Below are positions 6,215 to 19,960 of a DNA stretch of 24,000 nt, piece after piece; the first letter of the stretch is position 1; every line of letters starts with the position of its first letter. The position numbers and the translations under genes were made by a program. The notes under the pieces are model-generated. The model worked only from the letters and a program-made list of their open reading frames with translations. It was not told where the DNA came from and searched no databases. Origin of the DNA: Bacteroidales bacterium (lineage in GTDB: Bacteria > Bacteroidota > Bacteroidia > Bacteroidales > G963667975); the NCBI GenBank assembly GCA_963677395.2, contig OY781965.2, forward strand, positions 1,124,056 through 1,148,055, written 5' to 3'.

Positions 6215-6228
6215 TTTTTACATAAGAT

Positions 6229-6271
6229 AAAGCTAAGAGCCGGAGAATAAATGTTTCCGGCTCTTAGCTTT
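6229..6271. terminator. Bidirectional rho-independent terminator between convergent ettA and the membrane-NTPase gene
   Basis: Perfect 16-bp stem, AAAGCTAAGAGCCGGA (6229-6244) pairing with TCCGGCTCTTAGCTTT (6256-6271), and an 11-nt loop. It is flanked by A/T runs on both sides. It lies 15 nt after the ettA stop and overlaps the stop of the minus-strand gene by 2 nt. Confidence 0.8.
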
Positions 6272-8000
6272 ATTTATTCTGCCGAATTATTTGATTACTT
6301 GTAATGTATTGAATGATATCTGATACATTACATTTATTAACATTGAAAATCTTATAATTATTCAAATTCCAGTTTTCAATAACTTTATCAACAATGCTAA
6401 TTCGAACAATCCAAATCATAGGGATTTCTGTTTTTAATAACAGGTCATTTATACAAGAAGCCCAACCCTGATTTTCTAATTCCCAAGGGCCAACTTCGTC
6501 AATGAGGATTATTTGTGATTGAACATTATTTTCGAGAGATAAGATGTTTTTTGCAAACTCTATACTGGTATTTGAAAAATAGAATCTTCCAACTTGTATT
6601 AAATCTGGATTATCATAGGTTCTGGATAACATTATTTTTTCTTTGGTGGAAATATTAATTATATCATTTCCTGTACGTACGTTGTGCTCAAAAACAGAAG
6701 GAGATATGAATCCTCCAATTTTAATGTTGTTATAATTCAGATAGTTAATAACCTCATTAAGTAAGGCAGATTTCCCTTGCTCCGATTTTCCTGATATGAT
6801 TATTACAGGTTGTTTTTCTTTGAATTTTACAGAAAGTTTTTCAAGCCAAAAATCTGCCTGAGAAACCATTTGATGAATTATTGAAACTGGTTGTGAAAAA
6901 ATATTTTTAAAACTTGGCAAGTTTGCAATAACATAAGGTAAAGTATCAAAGGCAACTTCCAAAGCTAAAGGTATCTGACGAAATGATCTCCTTGTAAAAA
7001 AAGATCTGATAACAGGATTATACAGTTCGGTTCCAATAGTTGAAAATCCAACTATCATAATTGCTGCACGAAAGTTCATTTGTATTCCTAACAATAAACC
7101 TTCATATATTCCACTTGTTGTATTTTGAAATTTTGCAAACAGAAAACTTGAAAGCATTGTAATTAAAATGAATAGAATCCAGAACTTTGGCTTTTTTAAA
7201 GGTTTTAATGCCCTGTGATAACGAATAGTCCAGCAGGCAATAATTATTAAACCTGAAATGCTCCACCAAAGCCATCCGGTAAAATTCATGAAACACAATA
7301 CAGTTATCATTCCCAAAACATTAAAACCAAGCCAGAGTAACGAATAATTGAAAGATAAATCTATTTTCCTTGTTTGAATTTCACTTATTTTATTAAAATT
7401 AATGCCTTCTATTTTATTTGGTTCTCTTATAGCTTTTCGCCCGATGTAAATTCCAATTATCGCTGCAATTAATCCGAATAATAAGTCAATAACCCATAAG
7501 AAAATAACAGGTTGCCATAAGTTGTCAAAATGAATATTTAATTGTTTTTGGGCAAAACTTGCAAAACTATCATAAAGGTTGACAATATTGAACCCATACA
7601 TGATTATCAGATTTGCAATTTTATGGAGTAAATTCCACGACATTGCAAGCATTCCACCAACGAGGTATGCAAACATATTTTTTCGAAATACCCGTACCGC
7701 AAATTCAATAAGTAATGCTTCGCTGAATATGGCAATCATTGGTCCAAAAATCATAGTACTTGGTGAAATAGATTTCATTAAAGCACAAATCAAACCCGAG
7801 CGCCAGATAAGTCCTTTTTCTTTCCATAGATGACTAACAGAAATCAATAAAATAATACCTATAGCTGTAAGGAAATTACTACTGAATGGAATCCTCATGT
7901 TATGTAAAAAGCTACCTAAGACAATTTCAGAAGATGCCCATAGACAGCCAAGTACAGATGCTTTAAGCCATTTATTATTTAATTTATCATTGGTTTTCAT
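6270..8000 (-). CDS. Fusion protein: polytopic membrane domain (about 10 TM, about 390 aa) plus C-terminal P-loop NTPase (THEP1/DUF2478-like)
   Basis: 576-aa ORF. The N-terminal two-thirds is a series of hydrophobic helices. The C-terminus has a Walker A motif, ISGKSEQGKSALL, and a Walker B-like LIDEVGPWELENQGW, which resembles the EiGplEl motif of THEP1/DUF2478 NTPases. The family assignment is from memory. Its ATG at 8000 overlaps the upstream gene by 14 nt. Confidence 0.75.
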   Translation of the reverse strand: MKTNDKLNNKWLKASVLGCLWASSEIVLGSFLHNMRIPFSSNFLTAIGIILLISVSHLWKEKGLIWRSGLICALMKSISPSTMIFGPMIAIFSEALLIEFAVRVFRKNMFAYLVGGMLAMSWNLLHKIANLIIMYGFNIVNLYDSFASFAQKQLNIHFDNLWQPVIFLWVIDLLFGLIAAIIGIYIGRKAIREPNKIEGINFNKISEIQTRKIDLSFNYSLLWLGFNVLGMITVLCFMNFTGWLWWSISGLIIIACWTIRYHRALKPLKKPKFWILFILITMLSSFLFAKFQNTTSGIYEGLLLGIQMNFRAAIMIVGFSTIGTELYNPVIRSFFTRRSFRQIPLALEVAFDTLPYVIANLPSFKNIFSQPVSIIHQMVSQADFWLEKLSVKFKEKQPVIIISGKSEQGKSALLNEVINYLNYNNIKIGGFISPSVFEHNVRTGNDIINISTKEKIMLSRTYDNPDLIQVGRFYFSNTSIEFAKNILSLENNVQSQIILIDEVGPWELENQGWASCINDLLLKTEIPMIWIVRISIVDKVIENWNLNNYKIFNVNKCNVSDIIQYITSNQIIRQNK

Positions 8001-8799
8001 TTAGCAAGCAGATTTTTTTTGCACAATATTGAAATAAATGAAATCCTGCACCACCCTCAGAAACAATAGTAAACATTTTTTCTGGATTTGTAATTTTTGT
8101 TGAACCAATGATGGTAATATTGCGTTTGAACAGCATGTCAGGAATCAACCCGGCAGTAGGCCCAACAATAATCACCTGCTTGTTTGCAAGAATATGCACC
8201 AGTAGATTATCCAACGTATTGTTCAATAATGTTAATCCTGTAATTATAATAATATCAGAAACAGGCAGAACATCTGATGCTTTTGCAGCAGGCACGTAGT
8301 ATTGCTTTTCGTCTTCGTCAAGTGCATTTTCGTTCAATTCCAGAACGAATAATTTATGTGGTGTTTTGGATATTTTTTTAATGTATGAATGAAATGCCCC
8401 TACAATACATATTTTTTTTTGCCCACTCAAATCGAGCAAATCAAACGGATCTTTATCTTCAATGATTTTGATATTTGATTTGGCAATTATTTCGGTTGAT
8501 ACTGCGTTTAGCACTGCAAGTTTAACGCTATCCAATATTTTTGAACTTTCTGAACGGTTAAATAAATCCCAAACCTTTTGCCCGTTTATATTCCCAGGCG
8601 TAAAGCTGCCAAAATCATGTTTTTGTTTGTGACAGCAATTAACTGTAGTGTCCAAATCAATACTGGCAACACCACAATAACCATTTGATAATTTTACAGC
8701 AGTAAGAAATATCCCTATTTGAACGTTTTCTATTGTTGTATTCTCAATGTATTCACTATATTTGGTTTGTAATAAATGGAATGTTTCCTGTAAAATCAT
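7987..8799 (-). CDS. DUF4213/DUF364-like Rossmann-fold protein (putative metal or cofactor chelation/handling)
   Basis: 270-aa ORF. The N-terminal segment VQIGIFLTAVKLSNGYCGVAS resembles the DUF4213 pattern. The C-terminal part (KKICIVGAF...IIIITGLTLLNNTLD..L) looks like a DUF364 Rossmann-like fold. Assigned from memory of these families. Confidence 0.65.
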   Translation of the reverse strand: MILQETFHLLQTKYSEYIENTTIENVQIGIFLTAVKLSNGYCGVASIDLDTTVNCCHKQKHDFGSFTPGNINGQKVWDLFNRSESSKILDSVKLAVLNAVSTEIIAKSNIKIIEDKDPFDLLDLSGQKKICIVGAFHSYIKKISKTPHKLFVLELNENALDEDEKQYYVPAAKASDVLPVSDIIIITGLTLLNNTLDNLLVHILANKQVIIVGPTAGLIPDMLFKRNITIIGSTKITNPEKMFTIVSEGGAGFHLFQYCAKKICLLNENQ

Positions 8800-8824
8800 A
8801 AGTAATTAAATATTAAAATCTTAA

Positions 8825-8860
8825 CGATATGAATAATATTTCATATCGGCTTCAAAAGTA
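8825..8860 (-). promoter_or_regulatory. Promoter -7 box TACTTTTG (8860..8853) plus a palindromic operator-like element CGATATGAA-N6-TTCATATCG (8825-8848)
   Basis: Perfect TAnnTTTG on the minus strand. Five nt downstream is a perfect 9-bp inverted repeat ending 26 nt before ATG 8799. The same arrangement recurs at 19713-19748. Confidence 0.55.
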
Positions 8861-8930
8861 AAAATAAAATACAATATTTCCTAATTATTACCACTTAATA
8901 GGTGTTGTCTGGTTTTAAATAAAGAATTGT

Positions 8931-8961
8931 ATGATTATATAAAATTATTTTATATAATCAT
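8931..8961. repeat. Perfect 14-bp inverted repeat (ATGATTATATAAAA-TTA-TTTTATATAATCAT) in the divergent intergenic region
   Basis: Read directly from the sequence. The arms are 8931-8944 and 8948-8961 with a 3-nt centre. It is almost entirely A/T. Confidence 0.6.
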
Positions 8962-9045
8962 TACCAGATTGCTAACTTTTGCAGTTTTAGATGAATCGCA
9001 GCGATCTTTCCTGTCATGCTTCAAAATAACGATAGTATTTTTTAT

Positions 9046-9053
9046 TATTTTTG
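9046..9053 (+). promoter_or_regulatory. Candidate -7 box TATTTTTG for xdhC-family gene
   Basis: Perfect TAnnTTTG on the plus strand, about 115 nt upstream of ATG 9169. The surrounding sequence TATTTTTGCTTC is identical to the promoter at 19737-19748 read on the minus strand. Confidence 0.45.
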
Positions 9054-9168
9054 CTTCGTTTGAAATTTACAGGCTGGTTGTTTTAGGGCGTTGAGTCATG
9101 AGAATCAGTGTAATTGATATTAAATACAGGCTGTAATGGATATTTATAATTAATTAAAACTATGTTTA

Positions 9169-9939
9169 ATGGTTGACTTACTCCTTTCAATACCAAATTG
9201 CTACAAAGATCCCCGGTCTTCGGCGTTGTGTATAGTTACCAATGTTAGTGGATCTACTCCGGGTAAAGCTGGCGCAAAAATGATTGTCTATAGTGATGGC
9301 AAAATTGAAGGCACTGTTGGTGGTGGTGGAATTGAGAAAATGGTGATAGCAAATGCTCTTGATGTAATTAAAACACAAACATCCCAATTCAAAGAATTCA
9401 ATCTTCAGAAAGATCTGGGTATGACTTGTGGAGGTGTTGTTAGTGTATATATTGAGCCTATTTCCAGGCCATCAAAGCTTTATATATTTGGATCCGGACA
9501 TATTGGAAAATATATTGCTCAATATGCACCTGATATGGGTTTTGATACTTACCTTGTTGATTGGAGAGAAGATTATTTTGTAAGTCCTGAAAATATTCAT
9601 TACACACAGGTTTACAAGCCTTATTTGGAAGCTGTAAATGATATTTATTTCGATGCTGATACCTATATTGTTATTGTAACTCCAAATCACGAAATGGATG
9701 AAGATGTTTTGGCAGCAGTTGGGAAAAAAGATTCAGCTTATGTGGGTTTAATCGGAAGTAGCAGAAAGGTGGATACACTGAAAAAATTATTTCTACAAGA
9801 TGGAATTCTAACTGAAGAAGAATTGAATCGTGTTGATATGCCTATTGGAATTAAATTTAATGCAATAACACCTGCCGAGATTGCCATTAGTATTATTGCG
9901 AAACTTATTGATGTTAAGAACACAAAAGCATCAAAATAA
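9169..9939 (+). CDS. XdhC-family molybdenum cofactor insertion/sulfuration chaperone
   Basis: 256 aa. The N-terminal XdhC/CoxI motif is GSTPGKAGAKMIVYSDGKIEGTVGGGGIE. The C-terminal Rossmann domain is LYIFGSGHIGKYIAQYAPDMGFDTYLVDWRE. It is the only plus-strand gene inside the cluster. Confidence 0.85.
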   Translation: MVDLLLSIPNCYKDPRSSALCIVTNVSGSTPGKAGAKMIVYSDGKIEGTVGGGGIEKMVIANALDVIKTQTSQFKEFNLQKDLGMTCGGVVSVYIEPISRPSKLYIFGSGHIGKYIAQYAPDMGFDTYLVDWREDYFVSPENIHYTQVYKPYLEAVNDIYFDADTYIVIVTPNHEMDEDVLAAVGKKDSAYVGLIGSSRKVDTLKKLFLQDGILTEEELNRVDMPIGIKFNAITPAEIAISIIAKLIDVKNTKASK

Positions 9940-9949
9940 AATTTGAGCA

Positions 9950-10540
9950 CTAGAATGTACTGTTGAAAAAGCTTGTGTATTCCTCAGGTGTATTAATATT
10001 TCTTAAAATAGTATCGGAATTTATTTCAATATCCATTTTTGGATAAGGCGTTAATATATCACGTAGAGTAAAGTTATTATCATTTAACTGAGATATTTTA
10101 TTAATGATAACTTGTGGTAAAAGAACAGGATGCCCGCCTTTTCCTTTATAAACAGGCGAACACCACGCGTAAGGATTTCTTTGTGCATAAAGTTTTTCAA
10201 TAACATCAATACTTACGAAAGGATTATCAACGTTTTGAATAAAACAGAAATCGCTTTCTTTTGCTTCCTGTGAAGCTATTCTGATTGAATAAAATCGTCC
10301 CCATTCGGGATACTCATTAATTACAAATGTTACATTTGGTTGTACTTGTAAGTCACGACATAAGGGTTCTGTTTTCTTATTAACCATACAAATAATTTTA
10401 CTGCAATCAGCACTTGTATATTCATTAATAATTTTTTCCAGAAATGTTGTAGTATCATCCCATTTAAGAAGAGCTTTTGGTTTTCCCATTCTTTCTGAAA
10501 AGCCTGATGCGAGTATTATTGTTATAGAATTGCGATCCAT
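9950..10540 (-). CDS. MobA/MocA-like nucleotidyltransferase (probable Moco cytidylyl/guanylyl-transferase; DVU_1551-type)
   Basis: 196 aa. The N-terminal motif IILASGFSERMGKPKALL matches the MobA-like NTP-transferase signature LAgG.S.RMG..Kall. Confidence 0.8.
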   Translation of the reverse strand: MDRNSITIILASGFSERMGKPKALLKWDDTTTFLEKIINEYTSADCSKIICMVNKKTEPLCRDLQVQPNVTFVINEYPEWGRFYSIRIASQEAKESDFCFIQNVDNPFVSIDVIEKLYAQRNPYAWCSPVYKGKGGHPVLLPQVIINKISQLNDNNFTLRDILTPYPKMDIEINSDTILRNINTPEEYTSFFNSTF

Positions 10541-10590
10541 TTTGTATTTTTTGCGAGATTATATAAAATAATTATCAATGCAATAGATTT

Positions 10591-11823
10591 TTAATCCGTT
10601 TTATGACTTTCAATATGAATTCGTCTTTTTCCTCTGTGTGTAAAAGGATCTGCATTGCAATATTGAATTTTGACGTTTATTTCTTTTGGCAAATTTGCGA
10701 TGAGTGAATCTTCATCAATAAAGCTATCGGCTTCAATATTTAGAAGTAATGTATTTTTTTCTTTTTTCTGAATAAGCTTTGCATTAAAGCCACGAGCAAT
10801 AGGGTTTGCAAAAATTATTTCATCTAATTGATGAATACTTATTGTATTATCTCCAATGGGAATATTGCTTTCAATTCTCCCTTCAACTCTTCCTAATCTG
10901 TGAAGAGAACCTCCGCAACCGCAAGGTTTTTCAATGATGCTGGAAATGTTGCCCGTACGGTATCGAATAAGAGGCATAGCTTCATTAGAAAGTGTTGTTA
11001 TTACGATTTCTCCACTTTTGCCTTCTATGACTGGTTTTCCCGTTTTAGGATTAATAATTTCAAATATGAAATCAGCATCCCGCAAATGATACCCGTTGTG
11101 TTGTTCGCAATCAACAGCACAGCCGAAACCAAACTCAGTATGTCCATAATGAGAGAATACATTGCATTTCCAAGTTTCTCTAATACTTTCGATTACACTT
11201 TGAGGAACATAATCAGCTGTAAGGAGTACACTTTTAGGGCGTAGATTTTGCTCAACGCGACTCATATAGAGTATTTCTGCCGGCATACCAATTAAACAAT
11301 CAGCATCTTTAGATGCTTTAATTGCAGCATTCGCTGTTTTAATAGTTCCTGTTATTTCTGAGGAAACACCTATTCTCAAAAGACTATTTTTGAGAAGACT
11401 GCCTAAACTGTTTTCAGTTCTGTTTGATATAAGAATTTGTACATGCTCTCCTTTGTGTACCATTGTTTTCATGCCAGTTGCAAAGAAATTTACGGTTCTT
11501 TCAAGGTCTGCCTTTGAAAAAAAGATACGCTTTTTCAGAAGAGTGGTTCCAGAGTTAGCGAGAGTAGTTACTCTAGCAACTAAACTTTGCGGAATGGACA
11601 GAAAAGCAAATGGATCATTTGCAATATCTGATGGGAAAGTGAATGGTAGTTCGGTTATATTTTTTGTAGAATGAAGCTTTCTTTGATAAAACCTTGATTT
11701 TTCGCTTGCGTATTGAATCAAAGTTTGAAGCTTTTCAAGTTGCCAATCGCGTAATGTTTCAGGATTTAGATTTTCCAAAAGGCCTGTTTGTTGAGCAACC
11801 CAAGTATTTATTGGTGAAGTCAT
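10591..11823 (-). CDS. Adenylate-forming enzyme, PaaK/coenzyme F390 synthetase-like (DVU_1553-type AMP-dependent ligase)
   Basis: The ORF runs 10591..11871. I prefer the internal ATG at 11823, which gives MTSPINTW.., because it forms a TGATG stop/start overlap with the methyltransferase. The size, the SGTT motif (ANSGTTLLKKRIF) and the HYGHTEFG segment fit the PaaK-like subfamily of the ANL superfamily. Confidence 0.8.
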   Translation of the reverse strand: MTSPINTWVAQQTGLLENLNPETLRDWQLEKLQTLIQYASEKSRFYQRKLHSTKNITELPFTFPSDIANDPFAFLSIPQSLVARVTTLANSGTTLLKKRIFFSKADLERTVNFFATGMKTMVHKGEHVQILISNRTENSLGSLLKNSLLRIGVSSEITGTIKTANAAIKASKDADCLIGMPAEILYMSRVEQNLRPKSVLLTADYVPQSVIESIRETWKCNVFSHYGHTEFGFGCAVDCEQHNGYHLRDADFIFEIINPKTGKPVIEGKSGEIVITTLSNEAMPLIRYRTGNISSIIEKPCGCGGSLHRLGRVEGRIESNIPIGDNTISIHQLDEIIFANPIARGFNAKLIQKKEKNTLLLNIEADSFIDEDSLIANLPKEINVKIQYCNADPFTHRGKRRIHIESHKTD

Positions 11824-13750: not shown

Positions 13751-13751
13751 C

Positions 13752-13946
13752 TTATTTATCCTCCATTTGCATCTCGACTTCCGAAATGCGACCTTTTACA
13801 AGCTCTTCGGAGATGTAAACCAAGCCACATTGAGGACACTTTGGCAAGTCGGTGAAGAAACTATAACCGAGATAAGTAAAATCAGTTTTTTTAAGTACTA
13901 ACTCCTTATCACATTTGCCACAAATGAGTTTCTTTTTTTCGGACAT
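13752..13946 (-). CDS. 64-aa CxxC...CxxC zinc-ribbon/rubredoxin-like small protein (DVU_1557-type)
   Basis: The sequence is MSEKKKLICGKCDKE...LPKCPQCGLVY.., with two CxxC pairs about 30 residues apart. Its ATG directly abuts the upstream stop, and its own stop is 1 nt before the radical SAM ATG. Confidence 0.65.
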   Translation of the reverse strand: MSEKKKLICGKCDKELVLKKTDFTYLGYSFFTDLPKCPQCGLVYISEELVKGRISEVEMQMEDK

Positions 13947-16190
13947 TTATACCTCCTCTATTTTCATACGGTGACTGTACGCATTTATCAGTTCAAATTG
14001 ATTTTTTTGTTTAATCCGATATTCCACCCAGTAAGTAGCGTTACCTATTTGCATATATCCTGTGAATGTTTCATCTTCAGGGTCAAACAGTTTGCTTCCG
14101 CTTTGTTCACAATTTTTAATTACAGCACAGACATCTGTTTCCAAAATATACTTCTTGTTTAGCTTTTCTTTAAGCTCTTGTGAAATAACCACTTCAAAAT
14201 CAGGTTTTCCCATTGTTTTCTCTTCCTTCCAAAACTCTTTAAGCAATTGTGCTTTCAACTGAATTCGATTTTCTCTTCGCTCTGAAATGGTTGGCAAAGG
14301 ACTATTTTCGTTATCCAAATCAAAAATAATATCAAAAATATGCCATGTTCTTTTCTTTGCAGAAACGAAGGTATCACGGCAATTTGAACAATATGTGATG
14401 TATGGATTATCATTTTGTTCAACCCTTTTTTTTGCCGAATGTTCTACATAAGGTGGATATGCAATAGCTACTTGACCACCATAACTGCAACATTCGGCAA
14501 GTTTTCCTTCCATTGGCAGAGACTCAAGGTTAAACCCCGCTTTAGTTGCCAATGTACGAATAGATTTTTGCAATTCAGGCTCATGACGACTTGAGCAGGG
14601 GTCGAATACAGAAGCTATTTCTACTTTACTTTTATTAAAGAGGTGACTTCCTTTTTCTTCAATGATGTTATAAATAAATAGCCCTTCAATTTCGGGTAAA
14701 AACCGTTGAAACATCTGTTTACAGGTAGGACATGCGAAAATAGCTATTGGTTTCCCAAGATTCATCCAATCATCCTTGATCTTTTCAAGGGTTTTGTTGT
14801 GATTTTCCACATCTCCGGCCCAATCAGCAGGAGCACCACAGCAATTCAGCATTAATGCGATGTCTGGAAAGTGTTTTGTCAGGAATTTATAACTTTCGGT
14901 TACGTAACGAGGGTCAGAAGCACCAAGTTGGCAACCGGGAAAAAACATATATTGACTTTTATCATGTCCTTGTGCAGTCTTTGCAAGTGCAGCTTCATTG
15001 TTCGAAAATTCCATATCTCTCATATAGAATTCATGGAATGCCCATGGCATGGCGACTTTTTGATGCATCGCCTGCATACTTACCCGTAAAAATTCACCCG
15101 TATCAATATCTTTAGGGCAAACTTCTTTACATAATCCACAATGATTACAGGTGGAAATAAGTCTTGTGCAAACAGTTCCGTTCCCGTCTAAAGTACTGGG
15201 TCGTATTGTTACCTCAACTTCATCCGCAAAACGCTTGGGGTATTTCTTAAAATAGTTCATTAGCGGAGAGAAGTGAACACAAGCATCACAAGCACACTTA
15301 AGACAACGATTGGCTTCTGCTATCGACTCTTCTTTTGTGTATGTTTTTCCATCCAATGGCATTACTGTTTCGGCTTTAATTACCCGAATGGCATCGTGAA
15401 GCAATTTGGTGCCTTTAACTTCTACAGGATGATTCATGTAATTAGTCTTCAGGAATCTTTCTATTGCAACAGAAACCTGTAAGCCTTGAGCAATTGCATG
15501 CATGGTATCCGCACCAGTGATGGAACCACCGATAAAAACACCCTCTTTATTGCTGGCAAATGCCCCTTCATTGCCCTGAATAAGTCCAAAATCATTTCCA
15601 TCTTTCCCTGTGGCAACATAAATTGCATCAAAGTTTAAATCATCCAAATTTGTCACTTCAGTATTGAGCAAAAGAGTGTAGTTTTCGTGTGAAAACTGCT
15701 TATCAATATCCGCCAAAAATATTCCTGTGTCAAGCAGGTTATAAAGATGCCCCCCAATTCGATCCGATTTTTCGAAAATCGTTACCGCATATTTTTTTGT
15801 GGTCAACCGAAGAGCGCATGCAAGACCACTGATACCGCCACCGATTATCGCAATTCGTTTATCTTTTGGTGGCATATTGTATTGATCCGGTTCTGTATTT
15901 CGGGCAAAGTTCATCGAAGCTATTTCAAGTTGCATCATTGAAATCGAACCACCCGCCTCTTTCATAGGACAAACTATTTTGCACGGCTCGTTACACAAAG
16001 CAGAAACAATGCCCGGAAAACCTACTGTATTTTGATATGTTTTGTATGCTACATTAAAACGACCTTGCTGTATCTTGCCAATAAAGTCACGAACATCAAG
16101 GCTGAACGGGCATTCAGCTGTGCAAAATGCCCGTTCGTTTTGTAAACATTCAGAAATAAATTCATTATTTGATTCCATAAATGTGATCAT
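13947..16190 (-). CDS. Multidomain oxidoreductase: GltD-like Fe-S N-terminus, FAD/NAD(P) Rossmann domain, 2x[4Fe-4S] ferredoxin domain, two CCG (HdrD/GlpC-like) Cys-rich domains and an unknown C-terminal domain
   Basis: 747 aa. Motifs, in order:
- C..AECPF and CNEPCKIVCP
- the dinucleotide fold RIAIIGGGISGLACALRL
- CLKCACDACVHF and CNHCGLCKEVCP
- CCG-type motifs FPGCQL, LNCCGAP, FACPTC, DPCSSRH and ECCSYGG. Confidence 0.9.
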   Translation of the reverse strand: MITFMESNNEFISECLQNERAFCTAECPFSLDVRDFIGKIQQGRFNVAYKTYQNTVGFPGIVSALCNEPCKIVCPMKEAGGSISMMQLEIASMNFARNTEPDQYNMPPKDKRIAIIGGGISGLACALRLTTKKYAVTIFEKSDRIGGHLYNLLDTGIFLADIDKQFSHENYTLLLNTEVTNLDDLNFDAIYVATGKDGNDFGLIQGNEGAFASNKEGVFIGGSITGADTMHAIAQGLQVSVAIERFLKTNYMNHPVEVKGTKLLHDAIRVIKAETVMPLDGKTYTKEESIAEANRCLKCACDACVHFSPLMNYFKKYPKRFADEVEVTIRPSTLDGNGTVCTRLISTCNHCGLCKEVCPKDIDTGEFLRVSMQAMHQKVAMPWAFHEFYMRDMEFSNNEAALAKTAQGHDKSQYMFFPGCQLGASDPRYVTESYKFLTKHFPDIALMLNCCGAPADWAGDVENHNKTLEKIKDDWMNLGKPIAIFACPTCKQMFQRFLPEIEGLFIYNIIEEKGSHLFNKSKVEIASVFDPCSSRHEPELQKSIRTLATKAGFNLESLPMEGKLAECCSYGGQVAIAYPPYVEHSAKKRVEQNDNPYITYCSNCRDTFVSAKKRTWHIFDIIFDLDNENSPLPTISERRENRIQLKAQLLKEFWKEEKTMGKPDFEVVISQELKEKLNKKYILETDVCAVIKNCEQSGSKLFDPEDETFTGYMQIGNATYWVEYRIKQKNQFELINAYSHRMKIEEV

Positions 16191-16193
16191 CTA

Positions 16194-19115
16194 CTAAAAG
16201 AATCTTTCTCCTTCGGCACCACCAAGAGGTTTGAAGAAATCGATTCCACCGTAAGGAACCGGATTTGCTTTAATATCTTCGAGTTCATCATATAAATCAG
16301 CACCGAGGAAATATTTCTTTGGCGGCATGATTTTGCCTCCAGTAGCTAAAATATCAAGACCTTCTTTTACTTTTTCTTTGGTAGCCGGCATTTCGAAGAC
16401 CCTAACACCACAAGCATTGTAAATAGCATTCAACACCGCAACGTGTCCTGAGGCTTGGAATGCTTCTGATGCTCCAGATGAACCAAATGGGCCAGTTTTA
16501 TCGTATGTTTCATTATAGATAACTTTAATTTCATCTGGAATATCTTTAATATAAGGGACTCCACTGCTTGCAATATTCGTGTGTTTTGTAACATCTTCAT
16601 AATTTTCAGATAATGCAAAGCCAATGCTGTGAGAAATTCCGCCATAAGCTTGTCCGTTAACGGCATCGATGTTACCAATCTTACCAACATCAGCAATACA
16701 AATGAATCTGGTTACTGTTGTTTTTCCGGTTTTTGTATTCACAGCAACTTCAGCCATATTAAGAGCATACGTGAATGCAGGAGTTGGATCACCAATACCA
16801 GTATTTGGGTCAAGACGGCTTAATCCTTCTGTTACGATAGTCATATATTTGCCTTCGTATTTAGTTGGAATTCCTTCTTTTACCATTTCATCATAAGTTC
16901 TGTATGTGCCGTCATCTTTTTTCATTGCTTTCATTAATTTTTCGGCAGCAATAATGGTAGCATGACCATTCATATAATGCGAACGGCTACCAGCAGACAT
17001 ACCGCTATCGGGACAAATTTTAGTATCACTTTGAACAAGTTTAATTTGTCCAGGAGTAATTACGAGTGGTTTCAGTGCTTCCAATGTGACCATTACAGAG
17101 CCTATATCGCCACCTTGACCTAGTTCTTGCCAAGTGTCATACTTTGTAAATGTTCCGTCAGGATTTAATTCCAGATGTATTGTTGCGTGATCAGTAGCAC
17201 CTTCGGTTACGTTAAAACCACCCCATGCAATACCAACACCACGGCGAACTTCGGGAGTATCTTTTTCTTGAGCTTCTTTAACTGCCTGATTGTAAAATGG
17301 TTTGAGTTTGTTCATCATTTCTTCCATCGGATAAAGTCTGAACTTACAACTGTTAAGGTTTGTTTCTCCTTCACGGGCAATGTTTCTCCATCTGAATTCG
17401 AATGGGTCGATACCAGCCTTTTCAGCTAACATATCCATTAGTGCTTCACTTAATGTGAAAGCTTGTGGAGAACCGTAACTTCTGTAAGCTGTACCAAAGT
17501 TGTGATTGGTGGCTGCAATGCGTGAAATACCGGCTACGTTAGGCACATAGTATGGGAAGAAAGCAAAGCGAACTTGTTTTGTAATGATATCATCACCACC
17601 AAATGTATAGCAACCTTGATCCATTCCAAATTCAAATTCAGTAGCTGTTATTTTGCCATCTTTATCGCAGGAAACACGTCCATTGGAGTGACAAGGACGA
17701 CGTTTTCCACTGAAATGTTGATGTTCTTCATAGGTCATTGATAATGCAACTGGCATTTTAGTAATAACGGTAGCAGCAGCAGCAAGGCAAAGGTCTCCAG
17801 CATTTGTTGACCAACCAAAACTAGCGCCTGTTGGGTTCATGATAATTCTGATCTTATCTTTAGGAATACCAACTGAATTTCCGATACGGCCAATTGAAGA
17901 GTATACACCTTGTGATTTGCATTGAATTGCCAACATTCCGTCTTCATCAAAATAAGATTGAACAGTGTCACCTTCTATTGATAAGTGTGGCTCACGTGTT
18001 GCGAAAAAGCTTCCTTCGGCACTAAAAGCAGAATTGTCAATTACTTCAGCAACTTTTGATGGGTCATCAAGGCCAACACCTTTTAACACTGGTTGCATGG
18101 CGAAAATATTCGGAGTGTTTGCGTGAATGTTCATTGCATCAGGCATTGCAGCATCAAGATAACCCAAGTATTCTGGAAGTTTTTCAATTTCCACTTTAAC
18201 TTTGGCAGCAGCTTCACGTGCATGGTCTTTTGTATCGGCACAAACAAGCGCAACAACGTCACCATATCTGTATATTTTATCATCACAAAGAACTTTACGG
18301 CTAGGAACCATAACTTTAGTACGTTCGTGGAAGTGACCTTCGGCCATGATGTTTGTACCACCAGCAGCTCTAATATCATCAGCTGTAATGACTTTTACAA
18401 CACCCGGCATTTTTTTGGCTTCAGTGGTGTCTATTTTTAATATTTTAGCATGATGAGCAAGTTTTGGTTGTACCATCACAACTTTAAGGCTTTCAGCAGG
18501 CATTTTTAACTCTTGGTCATCGCCATAATCAGCTAAACCACACACTTTTGCAAGAGCAGTAGGACGAACAACACGTTTGCCATAATATTCGCCGTCTGTA
18601 GGGTTTTTAAATTTAATATCATCTAACTTTTTTTCTCCGCGCATAACAGCTGCAGCAGCCATTACAGCATCAACAATCTGCACATAACCTGTACAACGGC
18701 AAACGTTACGATGCTTTTGGAACCAATCGCGTACTTCTTCCCGAGTTGGATTTGTATTTTCTAACAGTAAAGCATATGTTGAAACGATGAATCCAGGCAC
18801 ACAAAAACCACATTGAACAGCACCAAGCTCCATCCATGCTACTTGAATAGGATGAAGATTTGTTGGAGTACCAATACCTTCAATGGTTAGTATTTCACTA
18901 TATTCGTCAACAGAGCGAATCTTCTTAGCACATGAACGGATTAATTTTCCATTCACAATAATTGAACAAGAGCCACATACACCTTTGTTGCATCCTACTT
19001 TGGTTCCGGTTAATCCCATACGACGAACCACATCGGCTAAAGTATCCTTTTCGGGATTGCAAATAACCATGCGGTTTGCTCCATTGATATTCAGCCATAT
19101 TTTTCTTAGATTCAT
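16194..19115 (-). CDS. Molybdopterin-dependent aldehyde oxidoreductase, MOP type (two [2Fe-2S] clusters plus Mo-cofactor domains, no FAD domain)
   Basis: 973 aa. The plant-type 2Fe-2S motif is GCNKGVCGSCSIIVNG. The second 2Fe-2S motif is QCGFCVPGFIVS...CRCTGY. There are long stretches collinear with Desulfovibrio gigas MOP as I remember it (LHP.Q.AW...GA.QCGFC.PGFIVS; REEVRDWFQKHRN.CRCTGY; FDxLAEKxGxDPxExR). The catalytic-Glu region is GPFGSSGASEAF. Confidence 0.95.
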   Translation of the reverse strand: MNLRKIWLNINGANRMVICNPEKDTLADVVRRMGLTGTKVGCNKGVCGSCSIIVNGKLIRSCAKKIRSVDEYSEILTIEGIGTPTNLHPIQVAWMELGAVQCGFCVPGFIVSTYALLLENTNPTREEVRDWFQKHRNVCRCTGYVQIVDAVMAAAAVMRGEKKLDDIKFKNPTDGEYYGKRVVRPTALAKVCGLADYGDDQELKMPAESLKVVMVQPKLAHHAKILKIDTTEAKKMPGVVKVITADDIRAAGGTNIMAEGHFHERTKVMVPSRKVLCDDKIYRYGDVVALVCADTKDHAREAAAKVKVEIEKLPEYLGYLDAAMPDAMNIHANTPNIFAMQPVLKGVGLDDPSKVAEVIDNSAFSAEGSFFATREPHLSIEGDTVQSYFDEDGMLAIQCKSQGVYSSIGRIGNSVGIPKDKIRIIMNPTGASFGWSTNAGDLCLAAAATVITKMPVALSMTYEEHQHFSGKRRPCHSNGRVSCDKDGKITATEFEFGMDQGCYTFGGDDIITKQVRFAFFPYYVPNVAGISRIAATNHNFGTAYRSYGSPQAFTLSEALMDMLAEKAGIDPFEFRWRNIAREGETNLNSCKFRLYPMEEMMNKLKPFYNQAVKEAQEKDTPEVRRGVGIAWGGFNVTEGATDHATIHLELNPDGTFTKYDTWQELGQGGDIGSVMVTLEALKPLVITPGQIKLVQSDTKICPDSGMSAGSRSHYMNGHATIIAAEKLMKAMKKDDGTYRTYDEMVKEGIPTKYEGKYMTIVTEGLSRLDPNTGIGDPTPAFTYALNMAEVAVNTKTGKTTVTRFICIADVGKIGNIDAVNGQAYGGISHSIGFALSENYEDVTKHTNIASSGVPYIKDIPDEIKVIYNETYDKTGPFGSSGASEAFQASGHVAVLNAIYNACGVRVFEMPATKEKVKEGLDILATGGKIMPPKKYFLGADLYDELEDIKANPVPYGGIDFFKPLGGAEGERFF

Positions 19116-19150
19116 AAATGTTTCTCCTATTGGTTGTTAAATTTATATAA

Positions 19151-19591
19151 TTATAATTCTTCTTCAAGAAAAGAGACTACTGTTTCAAGAAATTTCGGAC
19201 AAGTTTTGTAGAAAACAGGAAGCTTTATCATTAAGTCAGCTCCACTTAAATTGCTTCTGTCAAACCCAACTAATTCATTGCAAATGCTTGTGTTATGTGC
19301 TTTTTCAAATGTTTGGATAAGTTCTCTGGTTTTCTCACGTGACATTTTTTTAGCTTCTAAATCAGTTGCTTTCGTTGTCCCGTATTTAAGCCCAATAACC
19401 ATCATGGCACCCGTAAGTGCACCACATGTTCTCCCATATCCGCCAAACCCCCCACCAAAAGGACAAGCAATCTTAAGAGCTGTTTCGCGAGATAGTTCCA
19501 TTTCTTTACTAAAAGTTGCTAATACTGCTTGAGAACAGTGATAACCTGATGTGAATAATTCTAATGCTTCTGCAACTCTGTCTTTAACCAT
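19151..19591 (-). CDS. C_GCAxxG_C_C family putative redox-active protein (DVU_1555-type)
   Basis: Family-defining cysteines are present: YHCSQAVL, CPFGGGFG, RTCGALTGA and TSICNELV. The start in the ORF track at 19600 is a TTG. The first ATG (MVKDRV..) is at 19591. Confidence 0.8.
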   Translation of the reverse strand: MVKDRVAEALELFTSGYHCSQAVLATFSKEMELSRETALKIACPFGGGFGGYGRTCGALTGAMMVIGLKYGTTKATDLEAKKMSREKTRELIQTFEKAHNTSICNELVGFDRSNLSGADLMIKLPVFYKTCPKFLETVVSFLEEEL

Positions 19592-19712
19592 AAGCTTCAA
19601 ATATATTTATTATGGAGATGATTAAATTATTATCATATATTCTTAATTAGAAATCAATTAATAATAGCATACAATACTTGAAACTTAAGTTTAGGATGAC
19701 TTGATAATAAAT

Positions 19713-19748
19713 GGATATGTGAAATTTTACATATCGGAAGCAAAAATA
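19713..19748 (-). promoter_or_regulatory. Promoter -7 box TATTTTTG (19748..19741) plus palindromic element GATATG-N10-CATATC (19714-19735)
   Basis: Perfect TAnnTTTG on the minus strand. Five nt downstream is an inverted repeat, GATATGT-N8-ACATATC. The spacing and half-sites are the same as at 8825-8860. It lies about 115-150 nt upstream of the first gene of the aldehyde oxidoreductase operon. Confidence 0.55.
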
Positions 19749-19878
19749 AAAATAATTATACAATAATCCAATCTCTTAAATGGCTTTATATAGTCGCTCC
19801 TTAAAATTTATATAGTTGCCTCTTGTTAATAATATAATCGATTGGTTGTTAATAAATTAATTCAATATTTTTGTGTTT

Positions 19879-19919
19879 ATAAAAGCAGGAATAAGTATCT
19901 TTAAGGTATAAAATCCTGC
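19879..19919 (-). terminator. Weak candidate terminator after the 1102-aa gene
   Basis: On the minus strand, GCAGGA...TCCTGC forms a 6-bp GC-rich stem (19919-19885) with a large 23-nt loop, followed by TTTTAT. The oversized loop makes this uncertain. Confidence 0.3.
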
Positions 19920-19960
19920 AAATAATGATAGGGAAATTGCCTTTAAAAATTCAGCGAGAT

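What the first reader, a model, noticed from the sequence alone, without database searches (positions are those of the whole stretch)
6270..19772. Uncharacterised accessory gene set wrapped around a MOP-type molybdenum aldehyde oxidoreductase
Thirteen kb of almost gap-free genes place a Mo-hydroxylase-family aldehyde oxidoreductase next to two groups of genes.

(a) Expected Moco helpers: an XdhC chaperone and a MobA/MocA-like nucleotidyltransferase.

(b) Genes with no known role in Moco biology:
- a radical SAM enzyme
- a SAM methyltransferase
- a PaaK-like adenylating ligase
- a C_GCAxxG_C_C protein
- a 64-aa zinc ribbon
- a flavin/Fe-S/CCG fusion reductase
- a DUF364-like protein
- a membrane-NTPase fusion

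From memory, NCBI family names such as DVU_1551 family NTP transferase, DVU_1553 family AMP-dependent CoA ligase, DVU_1555 family C-GCAxxG-C-C protein, DVU_1556 family methyltransferase, DVU_1557 family redox protein and radical SAM (seleno)protein TrsS were coined for exactly this neighbourhood beside aldehyde oxidoreductase in Desulfovibrio vulgaris. I know of no biochemical function assigned to it.

The combination of ligase, radical SAM and methyltransferase is the enzymology of a small-molecule, cofactor or post-translational modification pathway. This suggests a dedicated maturation or cofactor-tailoring system for this enzyme. The flanking genes and the TAnnTTTG promoters show it is embedded in a Bacteroidota genome.
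Basis: partly seen in the sequence, partly recalled or inferred. Interest (0 to 1): 0.85.

Follow-up and report, generated by a model that had tools for sequence, protein, structure and literature searches.

The report
Aldehyde oxidoreductase with TrsS accessory genes
This is a Bacteroidota copy of a gene island found in many anaerobes, in which a molybdenum aldehyde oxidoreductase sits with a flavin/iron-sulfur partner, cofactor-insertion genes and a four-enzyme radical-SAM module of unknown function; the island is real and conserved, database curators have already named it, and nobody has worked out what it does.

Summary
Window 6270-19600 carries eleven genes. Three fail: the DVU_1555, XdhC_rel_AOR and DVU_1551 models.

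The order CGC-AOR-FLAV-Zn-TrsS-MT-LIG recurs across at least six phyla:
- 36 of 50 TrsS-anchored genome loci
- 21 of 29 AOR-anchored metagenome loci
- 5 of 5 Desulfovibrio-type AORs, including D. gigas MOP, the crystallised enzyme

The island splits into blocks.
- AOR+FLAV(+DUF7479) is the tightest pair (26/29). FLAV lacks an NAD(P)H domain. It is probably the enzyme's flavin partner.
- CGC-TrsS-MT-LIG travels with XdhC/MocA (16/21 versus 0/8). This favours a cofactor or active-site maturation role.
- DUF364 plus the membrane-NTPase is a separate Bacteroidota pair that also occurs far from any AOR.

Linkage is not strict: 8 of 50 loci show bona fide TrsS without partners. Native D. gigas AOR shows ordinary MCD, so no product of the module is visible.

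The mechanism remains inferred. The neighbourhood is already named in NCBIfam, and the naming is cited to Haft & Tolstoy 2025, which I could not read. I rate it a new member of a known, uncharacterised kind.

The parts
19151..19600 (-). C_GCAxxG_C_C small Cys-rich protein (CGC); the ORF starts at TTG 19600, the likely ATG is at 19591. First gene of the 8-gene operon.
   Evidence: Passes TIGR01909 (80.8 vs cut-off 47.4) and PF09719 (104 bits). Fails NF045669 DVU_1555 (54.1 vs 103). No homologue with a solved structure. The related DUF5714 domain is fused to TrsS in close relatives.
16194..19115 (-). MOP-type molybdopterin aldehyde oxidoreductase, 973 aa: 2x[2Fe-2S], a/b hammerhead and Moco-binding domains, no FAD domain. 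Carries a C-terminal tail of about 53 aa that D. gigas MOP lacks.
   Evidence: NF045668 scores 1158.7 vs 1100. Pfam domains. PDB 1SIJ/1VLB matches at E = 3.7e-245, with 42.9% identity over 914 aa. Tail conservation.
13947..16190 (-). FLAV, 747 aa: NfnB/GltD-like 2x[4Fe-4S] + FAD domain without an NAD(P)H domain, then a ferredoxin-like dicluster, CCG (HdrD-like) domains and a C-terminal region of about 140 aa. Probable electron-accepting partner of the AOR.
   Evidence: NF045663 scores 786.6 vs 530. Pfam hits Fer4_20, NAD_binding_8, Fer4_17 and CCG. The alignment to NfnB/GltD skips the NAD(P)H domain of about 150 aa. Starts 3 nt after the AOR stop. Present beside the AOR in 26/29 loci.
13752..13946 (-). 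DVU_1557 / DUF7479 four-Cys zinc-ribbon protein, 64 aa. A subunit or detachable domain of FLAV.
   Evidence: NF045645 scores 78.4 vs 60; PF24292 scores 91 bits. Fused to the C-terminus of FLAV in 4 of 5 Desulfovibrio-type loci.
12449..13750 (-). Radical SAM protein TrsS, the Cys form (no selenocysteine), 433 aa. Has the fold of the tetraether lipid synthase GDGT-MAS.
   Evidence: NF045646 scores 507.1 vs 490; Tes model NF045702 scores 307 vs 450. PDB 7TOL matches at E = 5.7e-73. AF2 model pLDDT 79.4; Foldseek TM 0.79 to 7TOM. No in-frame TGA in any of 80 loci.
11823..12482 (-). DVU_1556-family class I SAM methyltransferase. The likely ATG at 12461 overlaps the TrsS 3' end by 13 nt.
   Evidence: NF045667 scores 184.2 vs 155. 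Start read directly from the sequence. RPGG and ECS motifs are invariant in 44 homologues.
10591..11871 (-). DVU_1553-family PaaK-like adenylate-forming ligase. An alternative ATG at 11823 overlaps the methyltransferase stop as TGATG.
   Evidence: NF045666 scores 375.4 vs 300. Best PDB match is Bacteroides phenylacetate-CoA ligase 4R1L, E = 1.1e-26. Overlap read.
9950..10540 (-). MocA/MobA-like NTP transferase, 196 aa. Likely the Moco cytidylyltransferase. Corresponds to the N-terminal half of DVU_1551 and has no HD domain. Last gene of the operon.
   Evidence: PF12804 scores 92 bits. TIGR03310 scores 124 vs 186; NF045665 scores 103 vs 315, matching profile positions 3-189 of 359. The HD half is a separate gene or a fused domain elsewhere.
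9169..9939 (+). XdhC-family Moco chaperone, 256 aa. Its own transcription unit, convergent with the operon.
   Evidence: PF02625 and PF13478 both pass. NF045664 scores 208 vs 350; TIGR02964 scores 135.7 vs 161.6.
7987..8799 (-). DUF4213 + DUF364 protein, 270 aa. First gene of a two-gene Bacteroidota module.
   Evidence: PF04016 scores 140.5 bits; PF13938 scores 41.7 bits. Adjacent and co-directional with the membrane-NTPase in 14/15 loci. Literature links DUF364 to mod operons and SAM-derivative chemistry.
6270..8000 (-). Polytopic membrane domain of about 390 aa fused to a THEP1-type NTPase_1 domain, 576 aa. Overlaps the DUF364 gene by 14 nt.
   Evidence: PF03266 matches residues 400-566. AF2 model pLDDT 78.8. 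Only the NTPase domain matches solved folds. The pair occurs without AOR in 3/3 other Bacteroidota contigs.
19601..19960 (-). Intergenic region upstream of the operon, with TATTTTTG at 19741-19748. Putative Bacteroidota-type promoter.
   Evidence: Sequence read; motif list. The motif is not enriched in the window overall.
8800..9168 (.). Divergent intergenic region between DUF364 (-) and XdhC (+). TAnnTTTG copies at 8853-8860 (-) and 9046-9053 (+).
6227..6273 (.). 20-bp-stem hairpin between the convergent ettA and membrane-NTPase genes. Likely a bidirectional terminator that closes the region.

Best explanation
What it is (shown): the Bacteroidota version of the conserved 'TrsS / DVU_155x' gene neighbourhood around a MOP-type Mo-MCD aldehyde oxidoreductase. 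It consists of separable blocks.

1. Redox block: AOR + FLAV + DUF7479. Inferred mechanism: aldehyde is oxidised at Mo. Electrons pass through the two [2Fe-2S] clusters into FLAV, which has Fe-S clusters, an FAD domain, no NAD(P)H site and HdrD-like CCG domains. The Zn-ribbon protein acts as a FLAV subunit. FLAV would stand in for the FAD domain that MOP-type enzymes lack.

2. Maturation block: XdhC and MocA, with HD and His-phosphatase proteins in other lineages, together with CGC, TrsS, methyltransferase and ligase.
- From established knowledge of XdhC and MocA: MocA makes the cytosine dinucleotide form of Moco, and XdhC holds and inserts it.
- Inferred: the four unknown proteins work with these two during assembly of the Mo site or of the AOR-FLAV complex. 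The Cys-rich CGC (or its relative DUF5714) would be a metal- or sulfur-binding carrier docked on TrsS. TrsS would do GDGT-MAS-like multi-cluster radical chemistry. The ligase would activate a carboxylate by adenylation. The methyltransferase would cap a thiol or hydroxyl.
- The product is unknown. It must be either lost on purification or not located on the crystallised AOR.

3. Optional Bacteroidota add-on: DUF364 + membrane-NTPase. Inferred: an oxyanion or metal (Mo) handling pair, not specific to this enzyme.
For: Identity:
- Six curated NCBIfam cut-offs are passed.
- The gene order matches 36/50 TrsS-anchored loci from Bacteroidota, Bacillota, Acidobacteriota, Synergistota and Spirochaetota.
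- It also matches 21/29 AOR-anchored metagenome loci and 5/5 Desulfovibrio-type AORs, including D. gigas.

Redox block:
- FLAV follows the AOR in 26/29 loci, with a 3-nt spacer in the window.
- DUF7479 is fused to FLAV in 4/5 Desulfovibrio-type loci.
- FLAV aligns to NfnB/GltD on both sides of the missing NAD(P)H domain.
- The field regards the flavin partner of Dg AOR as missing, with flavodoxin only a putative partner (PMC10223205).

Maturation block:
- MocA or XdhC lies co-directionally within three genes after the ligase in 25/47 loci. It lies between the ligase and TrsS in 4 loci.
- Among AOR loci, XdhC or MocA is in reach in 16/21 loci with TrsS and in 0/8 without (Fisher p = 3e-4).
- ModABC, ModE-like and MoCF_biosynth genes recur beside the cluster.
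- DUF5714-TrsS fusions occur in relatives up to 88% identical. DUF5714 matches the 'metal-binding' MbdU model at 102 bits.
- TrsS has the GDGT-MAS fold, TM 0.79.

Add-on; literature.
Against: - Native D. gigas AOR comes from an organism with the full set. Its 1.28 A structure shows ordinary MCD and well-defined metal sites (PMC10223205). No product of the module has ever been seen on the enzyme.
- Linkage is not obligatory. Eight of 50 loci show TrsS alone, often beside an ArsR-type regulator and a CobW-like GTPase. Eight of 29 AOR loci have no TrsS within 10 kb.
- The XdhC/MocA co-travel statistic partly reflects physical linkage and shared ancestry, so the p-value overstates independence.
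- Some loci insert catabolic-looking genes. L026 has a family III CoA-transferase and an enoyl-CoA hydratase next to the ligase. P6C dehydrogenase recurs nearby.
- No experiment was found for any accessory gene.
Confidence: 0.4

Rival explanations
1. Electron-supply reading. The AOR-FLAV-DUF7479 block is a low-potential electron source: aldehyde oxidation feeds the CCG (thiol/disulfide-type) site of FLAV. FLAV reduces the Cys-rich CGC/DUF5714 protein, which serves TrsS. The TrsS-methyltransferase-ligase module makes or transforms something unrelated to the AOR itself, for example an organometal(loid) or thiol compound.
For: - FLAV has no NAD(P)H domain and ends in CCG domains.
- CGC-like DUF5714 is fused to TrsS and resembles the 'metal-binding' MbdU.
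- Stand-alone TrsS sits beside ArsR/SmtB regulators and CobW-like GTPases.
- The methyltransferase has weak ArsM-family similarity.
- TrsS scores as a bona fide family member without any AOR nearby.
Against: - XdhC and MocA, which the AOR needs, travel with the TrsS block and not with AOR-FLAV.
- Only one ArsM-type cysteine is conserved in the methyltransferase.
- No transporter, resistance or metalloid gene is conserved in the cluster.
Confidence: 0.22
2. Catabolic-pathway reading. The accessory enzymes act on the AOR's substrate or product. The ligase converts the acid product to an acyl-CoA or acyl-adenylate, and TrsS and the methyltransferase modify the carbon skeleton. The island would then be a dedicated aldehyde or acid utilisation route.
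For: - The ligase's closest solved relatives are phenylacetate-CoA ligases.
- A family III CoA-transferase and an enoyl-CoA hydratase are inserted beside the ligase, and an Ech-like complex beside the redox block, in L026.
- Fe-ADH lies upstream in Desulfobacter. P6C dehydrogenase recurs beside Bacteroidota clusters.
- AOR is listed under ethanol metabolism in D. vulgaris.
Against: - No conserved transporter or substrate-sensing regulator.
- The unknown genes are interleaved with Moco genes, not with catabolic genes.
- Some ligases are about 350 aa. I infer from length alone that they lack the C-terminal ANL subdomain.
- From memory, MOP has broad aldehyde specificity.
- The catabolic insertions are single cases.
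Confidence: 0.2
3. Lipid reading. TrsS is a bacterial tetraether-synthase (Tes) homologue that makes membrane-spanning lipids, and it merely sits next to the AOR.
For: - E = 5.7e-73 to GDGT-MAS and TM 0.79 over the whole chain.
- It would pass the E < 1e-50 criterion used to call bacterial Tes homologues (PMC8941075).
Against: - Fails the Tes model (307 vs 450) and passes the TrsS model.
- The protein is about 90 aa shorter than Tes, and the region between residues 310 and 385 does not align to it.
- No lipid genes are conserved nearby, whereas there is fixed synteny with AOR and Moco genes.
Confidence: 0.03
4. Chance juxtaposition of unrelated genes.
For: None, beyond the fact that some partners (DUF364 + membrane-NTPase) also occur elsewhere.
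Against: The same order recurs in several phyla, seen from both anchors, with overlapping stop and start codons.
Confidence: 0.01

Closest known systems
NCBIfam 'DVU_155x / TrsS' neighbourhood (NF045645, NF045646, NF045663-NF045669). The TrsS name is cited to Haft & Tolstoy 2025, mSystems 10:e0141724, in PMC13188914; I could not read that paper.
   Same: Six proteins pass the curated cut-offs. The core gene set is the same, and D. gigas and other Desulfovibrio-type genomes carry it next to the AOR. NCBI already names Bacteroidales MAG proteins 'radical SAM (seleno)protein TrsS'.
   Different: - Gene order: CGC comes first and TrsS precedes the methyltransferase. In Desulfovibrio-type loci the order is AOR-FLAV/Zn-MT-CGC-TrsS-LIG.
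- The window's CGC, XdhC and NTP transferase fall below the family cut-offs.
- There is no HD domain, His-phosphatase or MoCF_biosynth gene.
- The AOR has a tail of about 53 aa.
- A DUF364 + membrane-NTPase pair is attached.
- TrsS is the Cys form.
Desulfovibrio gigas aldehyde oxidoreductase MOP (PDB 1VLB, 1SIJ)
   Same: Same domain architecture with no FAD domain. Full-length alignment at E = 3.7e-245 and 42.9% identity. The accessory genes are the same.
   Different: A different sub-clade: 973 aa versus 907 aa, with a conserved C-terminal tail. Cofactor and substrate were not determined here.
Tetraether lipid synthase Tes / GDGT-MAS (PDB 7TOM, 7TOL)
   Same: Whole-chain fold, TM 0.79. Shares the N-terminal zinc-ribbon/rubredoxin-like domain, the radical SAM core and the Cys-rich auxiliary motifs.
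   Different: Below the Tes cut-off and shorter. It has its own CDHPLCGFH and CC motifs in a non-aligning region. The context is Mo-enzyme genes, not lipid genes.
Maturation sets of other xanthine-oxidase-family enzymes: XdhC for XDH, CoxDEF for Mo-Cu CO dehydrogenase, and YqeB/YqeC/MocA for selenium-dependent Mo hydroxylases (from my own knowledge)
   Same: An XdhC-type chaperone, a MocA-type cytidylyltransferase and a P-loop NTPase sit next to the structural genes.
   Different: None of those sets contains a radical SAM enzyme, a SAM methyltransferase, a PaaK-like ligase or a C_GCAxxG protein. The AOR does not reach the Se-dependent XDH cut-off (371 vs 830).
NfnB / GltD small-subunit flavoproteins and HdrD-type CCG proteins
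   Same: FLAV has the N-terminal 2x[4Fe-4S] + FAD-binding module and C-terminal dicluster + CCG domains.
   Different: The NAD(P)H-binding domain of about 150 aa is absent. The combination with a DUF7479 zinc ribbon is specific to this family.

Membership tests
TrsS / DVU_155x aldehyde-oxidoreductase neighbourhood (NCBIfam) | AOR reaches the NF045668 cut-off | tested here: met
   1158.7 vs 1100 bits.
TrsS / DVU_155x aldehyde-oxidoreductase neighbourhood (NCBIfam) | Radical SAM protein reaches the NF045646 (TrsS) cut-off | tested here: met
   507.1 vs 490 bits. The margin is narrow.
TrsS / DVU_155x aldehyde-oxidoreductase neighbourhood (NCBIfam) | NF045663 flavo/dicluster protein, NF045645 DVU_1557, NF045667 DVU_1556 and NF045666 DVU_1553 all reach their cut-offs | tested here: met
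   786.6/530, 78.4/60, 184.2/155 and 375.4/300.
TrsS / DVU_155x aldehyde-oxidoreductase neighbourhood (NCBIfam) | NF045669 DVU_1555-type C_GCAxxG protein | tested here: not met
   54.1 vs 103. It passes only the general TIGR01909 model (80.8 vs 47.4). The D. gigas protein passes at 153.7.
TrsS / DVU_155x aldehyde-oxidoreductase neighbourhood (NCBIfam) | NF045664 XdhC_rel_AOR and NF045665 DVU_1551 NTP transferase | tested here: not met
   208 vs 350 and 103 vs 315. The NTP transferase lacks the HD half.
TrsS / DVU_155x aldehyde-oxidoreductase neighbourhood (NCBIfam) | Conserved co-location of the core genes with the AOR | tested here: met
   36/50 TrsS-anchored loci, 21/29 AOR-anchored loci and 5/5 Desulfovibrio-type loci.
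TrsS / DVU_155x aldehyde-oxidoreductase neighbourhood (NCBIfam) | Selenocysteine in TrsS (optional: the family is named '(seleno)protein') | tested here: not met
   The window ORF is uninterrupted. No in-frame TGA was found in TrsS in 80 loci. The 416-aa forms are start-call artefacts.
MOP-type Mo-MCD aldehyde oxidoreductase | 2x[2Fe-2S] + hammerhead + two Moco-binding domains in one chain, with no FAD domain | tested here: met
   Pfam hits Fer2, Fer2_2, Ald_Xan_dh_C, MoCoBD_1 and MoCoBD_2. Full-length match to 1SIJ.
MOP-type Mo-MCD aldehyde oxidoreductase | Molybdopterin cytosine dinucleotide cofactor and aldehyde-oxidising activity | not testable with these tools
   Only indirect support: a MocA-like gene lies in the operon.
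Tetraether lipid synthase Tes / GDGT-MAS | Reaches the NF045702 cut-off | tested here: not met
   307.4 vs 450.
Tetraether lipid synthase Tes / GDGT-MAS | Same fold | tested here: met
   Foldseek hit to 7TOM at E = 1.9e-35, TMq 0.79, 31% identity.
ArsM-type metalloid methyltransferase | Family cut-off and the conserved metalloid-binding cysteine pair | tested here: not met
   Best ArsM-type score is 50.6 vs 240. Only C100 is invariant; the second Cys is not conserved in 44 homologues.
NAD(P)H-dependent GltD/NfnB-type flavoprotein | NAD(P)H-binding Rossmann domain between the two halves of the FAD domain | tested here: not met
   FLAV residues 9-207 and 195-247 align to NfnB residues 33-246 and 405-459, skipping about 150 residues.
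Selenium-dependent molybdenum hydroxylase | Reaches the TIGR03311 cut-off | tested here: not met
   371 vs 830.

The most novel reading that the evidence does not exclude
In vivo, MOP-type aldehyde oxidoreductases would carry a labile extra feature that aerobic purification removes. This could be an alkylated or methylated chalcogenide, another organometallic ligand at Mo, or a modification on the FLAV partner. The feature would be built by CGC-TrsS-methyltransferase-ligase and delivered with XdhC. The true holoenzyme would be an AOR-FLAV-DUF7479 complex. This would explain two old puzzles of D. gigas AOR: a catalytically competent form without the sulfido ligand, and the missing flavin domain.
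Probability: 0.12. Interest if true: 0.9.

Novelty: new member of a known kind. Interest (0 to 1): 0.6.

Why it matters
- The textbook bacterial xanthine-oxidase-family enzyme, D. gigas MOP, has been studied for 40 years as an isolated homodimer. Its flavin partner is only putative, and its Mo site is treated as an 'exception' (PMC10223205).
- Its gene is followed by a conserved FAD/Fe-S/CCG protein and a radical-SAM/methyltransferase/ligase module, in D. gigas and in at least six phyla (Bacteroidota here). Both puzzles therefore become genetically and biochemically testable.
- If the module matures the enzyme, it would be a new type of Mo-enzyme maturation chemistry.
- Practical point: TrsS proteins pass the similarity thresholds used to call 'bacterial Tes homologues' as markers of brGDGT lipid producers (PMC8941075). 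They may therefore inflate such surveys.

Tried and rejected
- **Selenocysteine.** I looked for in-frame TGA in TrsS, CGC, the methyltransferase, the ligase, FLAV and the AOR across 80 loci. No convincing Sec site turned up. Recurrent 416-aa 'truncated' TrsS entries looked like Sec truncations, but the DNA shows an ordinary upstream start.
- **Riboswitch or other RNA.** Rfam found nothing in the window.
- **ArsM-like metalloid methyltransferase.** By eye the methyltransferase seemed to keep both arsenic-binding cysteines. In an alignment of 44 homologues only one is conserved.
- **Membrane domain of the NTPase fusion.** The AF2 model is reasonable (pLDDT 78.8), but only the NTPase domain matches a solved fold. 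The transporter hits have TM scores near 0.14 and are noise.
- **Expression data.** The supplements of a D. vulgaris proteomics paper list Aor but none of the neighbouring loci. Full-text searches for DVU1553, DVU1557 and DVU1559 gave nothing on the accessory genes.
- **Haft & Tolstoy 2025.** The library does not hold it, so I could not check what those authors propose.
- **TAnnTTTG as evidence of taxonomy.** The motif is not enriched.
- **DUF5714 remnant in the window.** None found.
- **L026 as a TrsS block attached to a different Mo enzyme.** The neighbouring genes are an Ech-like complex, not a Mo enzyme. The AOR probably lies just beyond the locus edge.

Full report
**1. What is in the window**

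Between 6270 and 19600 lie eleven genes.

- Eight form a co-directional run on the minus strand: C_GCAxxG_C_C (19151-19600; the likely ATG is 19591), AOR (16194-19115), a 747-aa flavin/Fe-S/CCG protein called FLAV here (13947-16190), a 64-aa four-Cys zinc ribbon (13752-13946), a radical SAM protein (12449-13750), a methyltransferase (11823-12482), a PaaK-like ligase (10591-11871) and a MocA-like NTP transferase (9950-10540).
- Spacers are 35, 3, 0 and 1 nt. Two overlaps follow: the methyltransferase ATG at 12461 lies inside the TrsS 3' end, and a ligase ATG at 11823 overlaps the methyltransferase stop as TGATG.
- XdhC (9169-9939) is on the plus strand and converges on this operon.
- After a 369-bp divergent spacer come DUF4213/DUF364 (7987-8799) and a membrane-domain + NTPase_1 fusion (6270-8000). 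These two overlap by 14 nt.
- A 20-bp-stem hairpin at 6227-6273 closes the region against ettA.
- Rfam finds no RNA element.
- Flanking genes include a T9SS CHU_C/SBBP protein. The nearest relatives of the proteins are in Bacteroidota and Bacteroidales MAGs, and the exact proteins occur on a 4.18-Mb NCBI/ENA contig. The Bacteroidota origin therefore holds, although TAnnTTTG is not enriched (38 versus 32.5 +/- 5.7).

**2. Family placement**

| Model | Score / cut-off | Result |
|---|---|---|
| NF045668 AOR | 1158.7 / 1100 | pass |
| NF045663 FLAV | 786.6 / 530 | pass |
| NF045645 DVU_1557 | 78.4 / 60 | pass |
| NF045646 TrsS | 507.1 / 490 | pass |
| NF045667 DVU_1556 | 184.2 / 155 | pass |
| NF045666 DVU_1553 | 375.4 / 300 | pass |
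| NF045669 DVU_1555 | 54.1 / 103 | fail (passes general C_GCAxxG_C_C model) |
| NF045664 XdhC_rel_AOR | 208 / 350 | fail |
| NF045665 DVU_1551 | 103 / 315 | fail |

The window's NTP transferase is only the N-terminal half of DVU_1551. The HD half is a separate or fused domain elsewhere.

A 2026 review (PMC13188914) cites the TrsS name to Haft & Tolstoy 2025. That paper is not in the library. NCBI already labels Bacteroidales MAG proteins as TrsS.

**3. Conservation seen from TrsS**

A scan of one genome per species returned 243 relatives, and I analysed the best 80 loci.

- The order CGC>AOR>FLAV>Zn>TrsS>MT>LIG recurs in Bacteroidota, Bacillota, Acidobacteriota (Holophagae), Synergistota, Spirochaetota and others.
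- Among 50 loci with enough flank:
  - 36 have AOR+FLAV+MT+LIG.
  - 3 have AOR+FLAV only.
  - 3 have MT/LIG without an AOR in reach.
  - 8 have TrsS with no partner.
- The lone TrsS proteins are not a weak paralogue. They score 548-559 bits against the TrsS model. They often sit behind an ArsR/SmtB regulator and a CobW-like GTPase, among housekeeping genes.

**4. Conservation seen from the AOR**

- I rebuilt the D. gigas MOP sequence from the PDB alignment and found it as P0121. In D. gigas the mop gene is followed by a nitroreductase-like gene, FLAV, DUF7479, the methyltransferase, CGC (a true DVU_1555, 153.7 bits), TrsS (632 bits), the ligase, XdhC, a CobC-like His-phosphatase and a HEAT protein.
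- Four further Desulfovibrio-type AORs show the same set, usually with DUF7479 fused to FLAV and with XdhC, NTP-transferase+HD and His-phosphatase at the end.
- A metagenome scan gave 80 AOR-anchored loci spanning 43-88% identity. Of the 29 with at least 7.5 kb downstream:
  - 21 have FLAV+TrsS+(MT/LIG).
  - 2 have FLAV+(MT/LIG) but no detectable TrsS.
  - 3 have FLAV(+Zn) only.
  - 3 have none.
- FLAV is therefore the tightest partner (26/29). The TrsS block is frequent but detachable.

**5. Modules**

*(a) AOR+FLAV+DUF7479.*
- FLAV's N-terminus aligns to NfnB/GltD-type proteins on both sides of their NAD(P)H domain, but that domain of about 150 residues is missing.
- Downstream are a ferredoxin-like dicluster and CCG domains.
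- The window AOR is 42.9% identical to MOP over 914 residues and has the same FAD-less architecture.
- The historical account of Dg AOR describes a search for the 'missing' flavo-domain and treats flavodoxin as a putative partner (PMC10223205).
- I infer that FLAV is that partner.

*(b) CGC-TrsS-MT-LIG with XdhC and MocA.*
- MocA or XdhC follows the ligase co-directionally within three genes in 25/47 loci. It lies between the ligase and TrsS in four loci.
- In AOR-anchored loci, XdhC or MocA is in reach in 16/21 loci with TrsS and in 0/8 without (p = 3e-4).
- The known Moco-insertion genes therefore travel with the unknown enzymes rather than with the structural genes.
- Close relatives of the window's TrsS (88% identical; most members of its 90% cluster) carry an N-terminal DUF5714 domain. 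That domain weakly resembles C_GCAxxG_C_C and matches the 'metal-binding double selenoprotein MbdU' model.
- TrsS has the GDGT-MAS fold over its whole length (TM 0.79). It fails the Tes model.

*(c) DUF364 + membrane-NTPase.*
- The two are adjacent and co-directional in 14/15 cases.
- There are about 1900 homologues of the fusion.
- In 3/3 long Bacteroidota contigs the pair lies after Crp-rhodanese-Porin_O_P-rhodanese and near Nitro_FeMo-Co, DsrE and TusA genes, with no AOR.
- DUF364 is linked in the literature to molybdate and tungstate transport operons (PMC2954201; cofitness with nif and mod genes in M. maripaludis). Its first characterised member cyclises a methyl-SAM (PMC12930334).
- The membrane domain has no solved structural match.

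**6. Mechanism**

The module structure is shown. The following is inferred.

- The AOR passes electrons to FLAV/DUF7479.
- MocA and XdhC make and insert MCD, from established knowledge of those families.
- The four unknown proteins act in the same assembly process. A Cys-rich carrier (CGC or DUF5714) docks on a multi-cluster radical SAM enzyme, with an adenylating ligase and a methyltransferase alongside.

The main obstacle is that D. gigas has all the genes, yet its native enzyme at 1.28 A shows ordinary MCD and clean metal sites. The product must therefore be labile, be located on FLAV or another partner, or not concern the enzyme at all. The same review notes that Dg AOR is accepted as an exception that lacks the sulfido ligand. 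That leaves room for a lost ligand, but this is speculation.

Rival readings:
- The AOR-FLAV block supplies low-potential electrons to an otherwise independent TrsS chemistry.
- The accessory enzymes form a catabolic route around the ligase. This is supported by single-case insertions of a CoA-transferase and an enoyl-CoA hydratase in L026.
- TrsS has a lipid (Tes-like) role. Context and HMM scores argue against this.

**7. Novelty and verdict**

- The neighbourhood is real, ancient or widely transferred, and uncharacterised. It is already encoded in curated NCBIfam models and applied to Bacteroidales MAGs, so the window is a new member of a known, function-unknown kind.
- Its particulars are: CGC placed first, a short MocA and a short XdhC, no HD or His-phosphatase, a conserved 53-aa AOR tail, an unfused TrsS, and the DUF364 + membrane-NTPase add-on.
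- The value lies in making two old questions about MOP-type enzymes testable: the flavin partner and the odd Mo site.
- It also flags that TrsS proteins satisfy the thresholds used to call bacterial Tes homologues.

Noticed in passing
window 16197-16355 (AOR residues 921-973): The AOR has a C-terminal tail of about 53 aa (PPKKYFLGxDLYDELExIKANPVPxGGxDFFxPLGxxxGERFF). It is strongly conserved in Bacteroidota, Clostridia, Holophagae and Synergistota, and absent from D. gigas MOP and other 905-907-aa Desulfovibrio-type AORs. Some loci have a half-length tail. It may be a docking peptide; the function is unknown.
   Followed up: partly
P0001, P0046, P0071, P0075; cluster members: Relatives up to 88% identical to the window's TrsS are 665-695-aa fusions with an N-terminal DUF5714 domain (Zn ribbon, HGPEHH and GGxCGxxGxCG motifs). 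The window's TrsS is unfused, and the window holds no DUF5714 remnant.
   Followed up: partly
L039, L040, L053, L057-L059, L063 (TrsS at about 10000-11300): Bona fide TrsS occurs as a small unit of ArsR/SmtB regulator + CobW-like G3E GTPase + TrsS among housekeeping genes (pheS, zapA, polX, nif3, U32 peptidase), with no AOR within 10 kb.
   Followed up: partly
L087-L089, about 5700-11750: In other Bacteroidota the DUF364 + membrane-NTPase pair follows a Crp-like regulator and rhodanese-Porin_O_P-rhodanese. It is followed by DUF134, Nitro_FeMo-Co, DUF5320, CGGC, CbiA-like, DsrE and TusA genes. This looks like a sulfur or oxyanion handling locus of unknown function.
   Followed up: no
L026 1956-7101 and 11525-13668: In a Syntrophomonadaceae genome a six-subunit Ech/Mbh-like membrane complex is inserted between DUF7479/MoCF_biosynth and CGC-MT-XdhC-TrsS. 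A family III CoA-transferase and an enoyl-CoA hydratase sit between TrsS and the ligase.
   Followed up: partly
L083-L086 (gene after the AOR): DUF7479 is fused to the C-terminus of FLAV (838-912 aa) in 4 of 5 Desulfovibrio-type loci. XdhC, NTP-transferase and HD are fused into one 715-aa protein in Desulfobacter curvatus.
   Followed up: yes
L081 12800-13414 and 20673-21260: The D. gigas cluster also holds a nitroreductase/BluB-like gene between the AOR and FLAV, and a CobC-like alpha-ribazole-phosphatase homologue (156 vs cut-off 163). MocA-His-phosphatase fusions occur in Clostridia (L035, L041). A nucleotide-handling theme (HD, His-phosphatase, PpnP-like cupin) runs through the clusters and is unexplained.
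   Followed up: partly
L003-L025 (cluster c10), e.g. L023 3020-4573: An L-piperidine-6-carboxylate (ALDH7-type) dehydrogenase (772 vs cut-off 730) lies beside the cluster in many Bacteroidota loci. It is not in this window.
   Followed up: no
window 6227-6273: A perfect 20-bp-stem hairpin lies between the convergent ettA (4538-6214) and the membrane-NTPase gene. It is probably a bidirectional terminator.
   Followed up: no
window 6270-7450 (residues 1-390 of the NTPase fusion): The membrane domain of about 10 helices has many invariant residues (WASSEI, GSFLHN, SPS..FGPM motifs). It has no Pfam family and no solved structural match.
   Followed up: partly
window 23507-23845 and 19961-23269: A small GIY-YIG nuclease-domain ORF and a 1102-aa SBBP beta-propeller / CHU_C T9SS-sorted protein flank the island. 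Neither is related to it.
   Followed up: no
L135, L166, L125: Some MOP-clade AORs (65-67% identical to D. gigas MOP) keep only FLAV(+Zn ribbon) beside them, with neither the TrsS block nor XdhC/MocA within 10 kb. I could not check whether the block is elsewhere in those genomes.
   Followed up: partly
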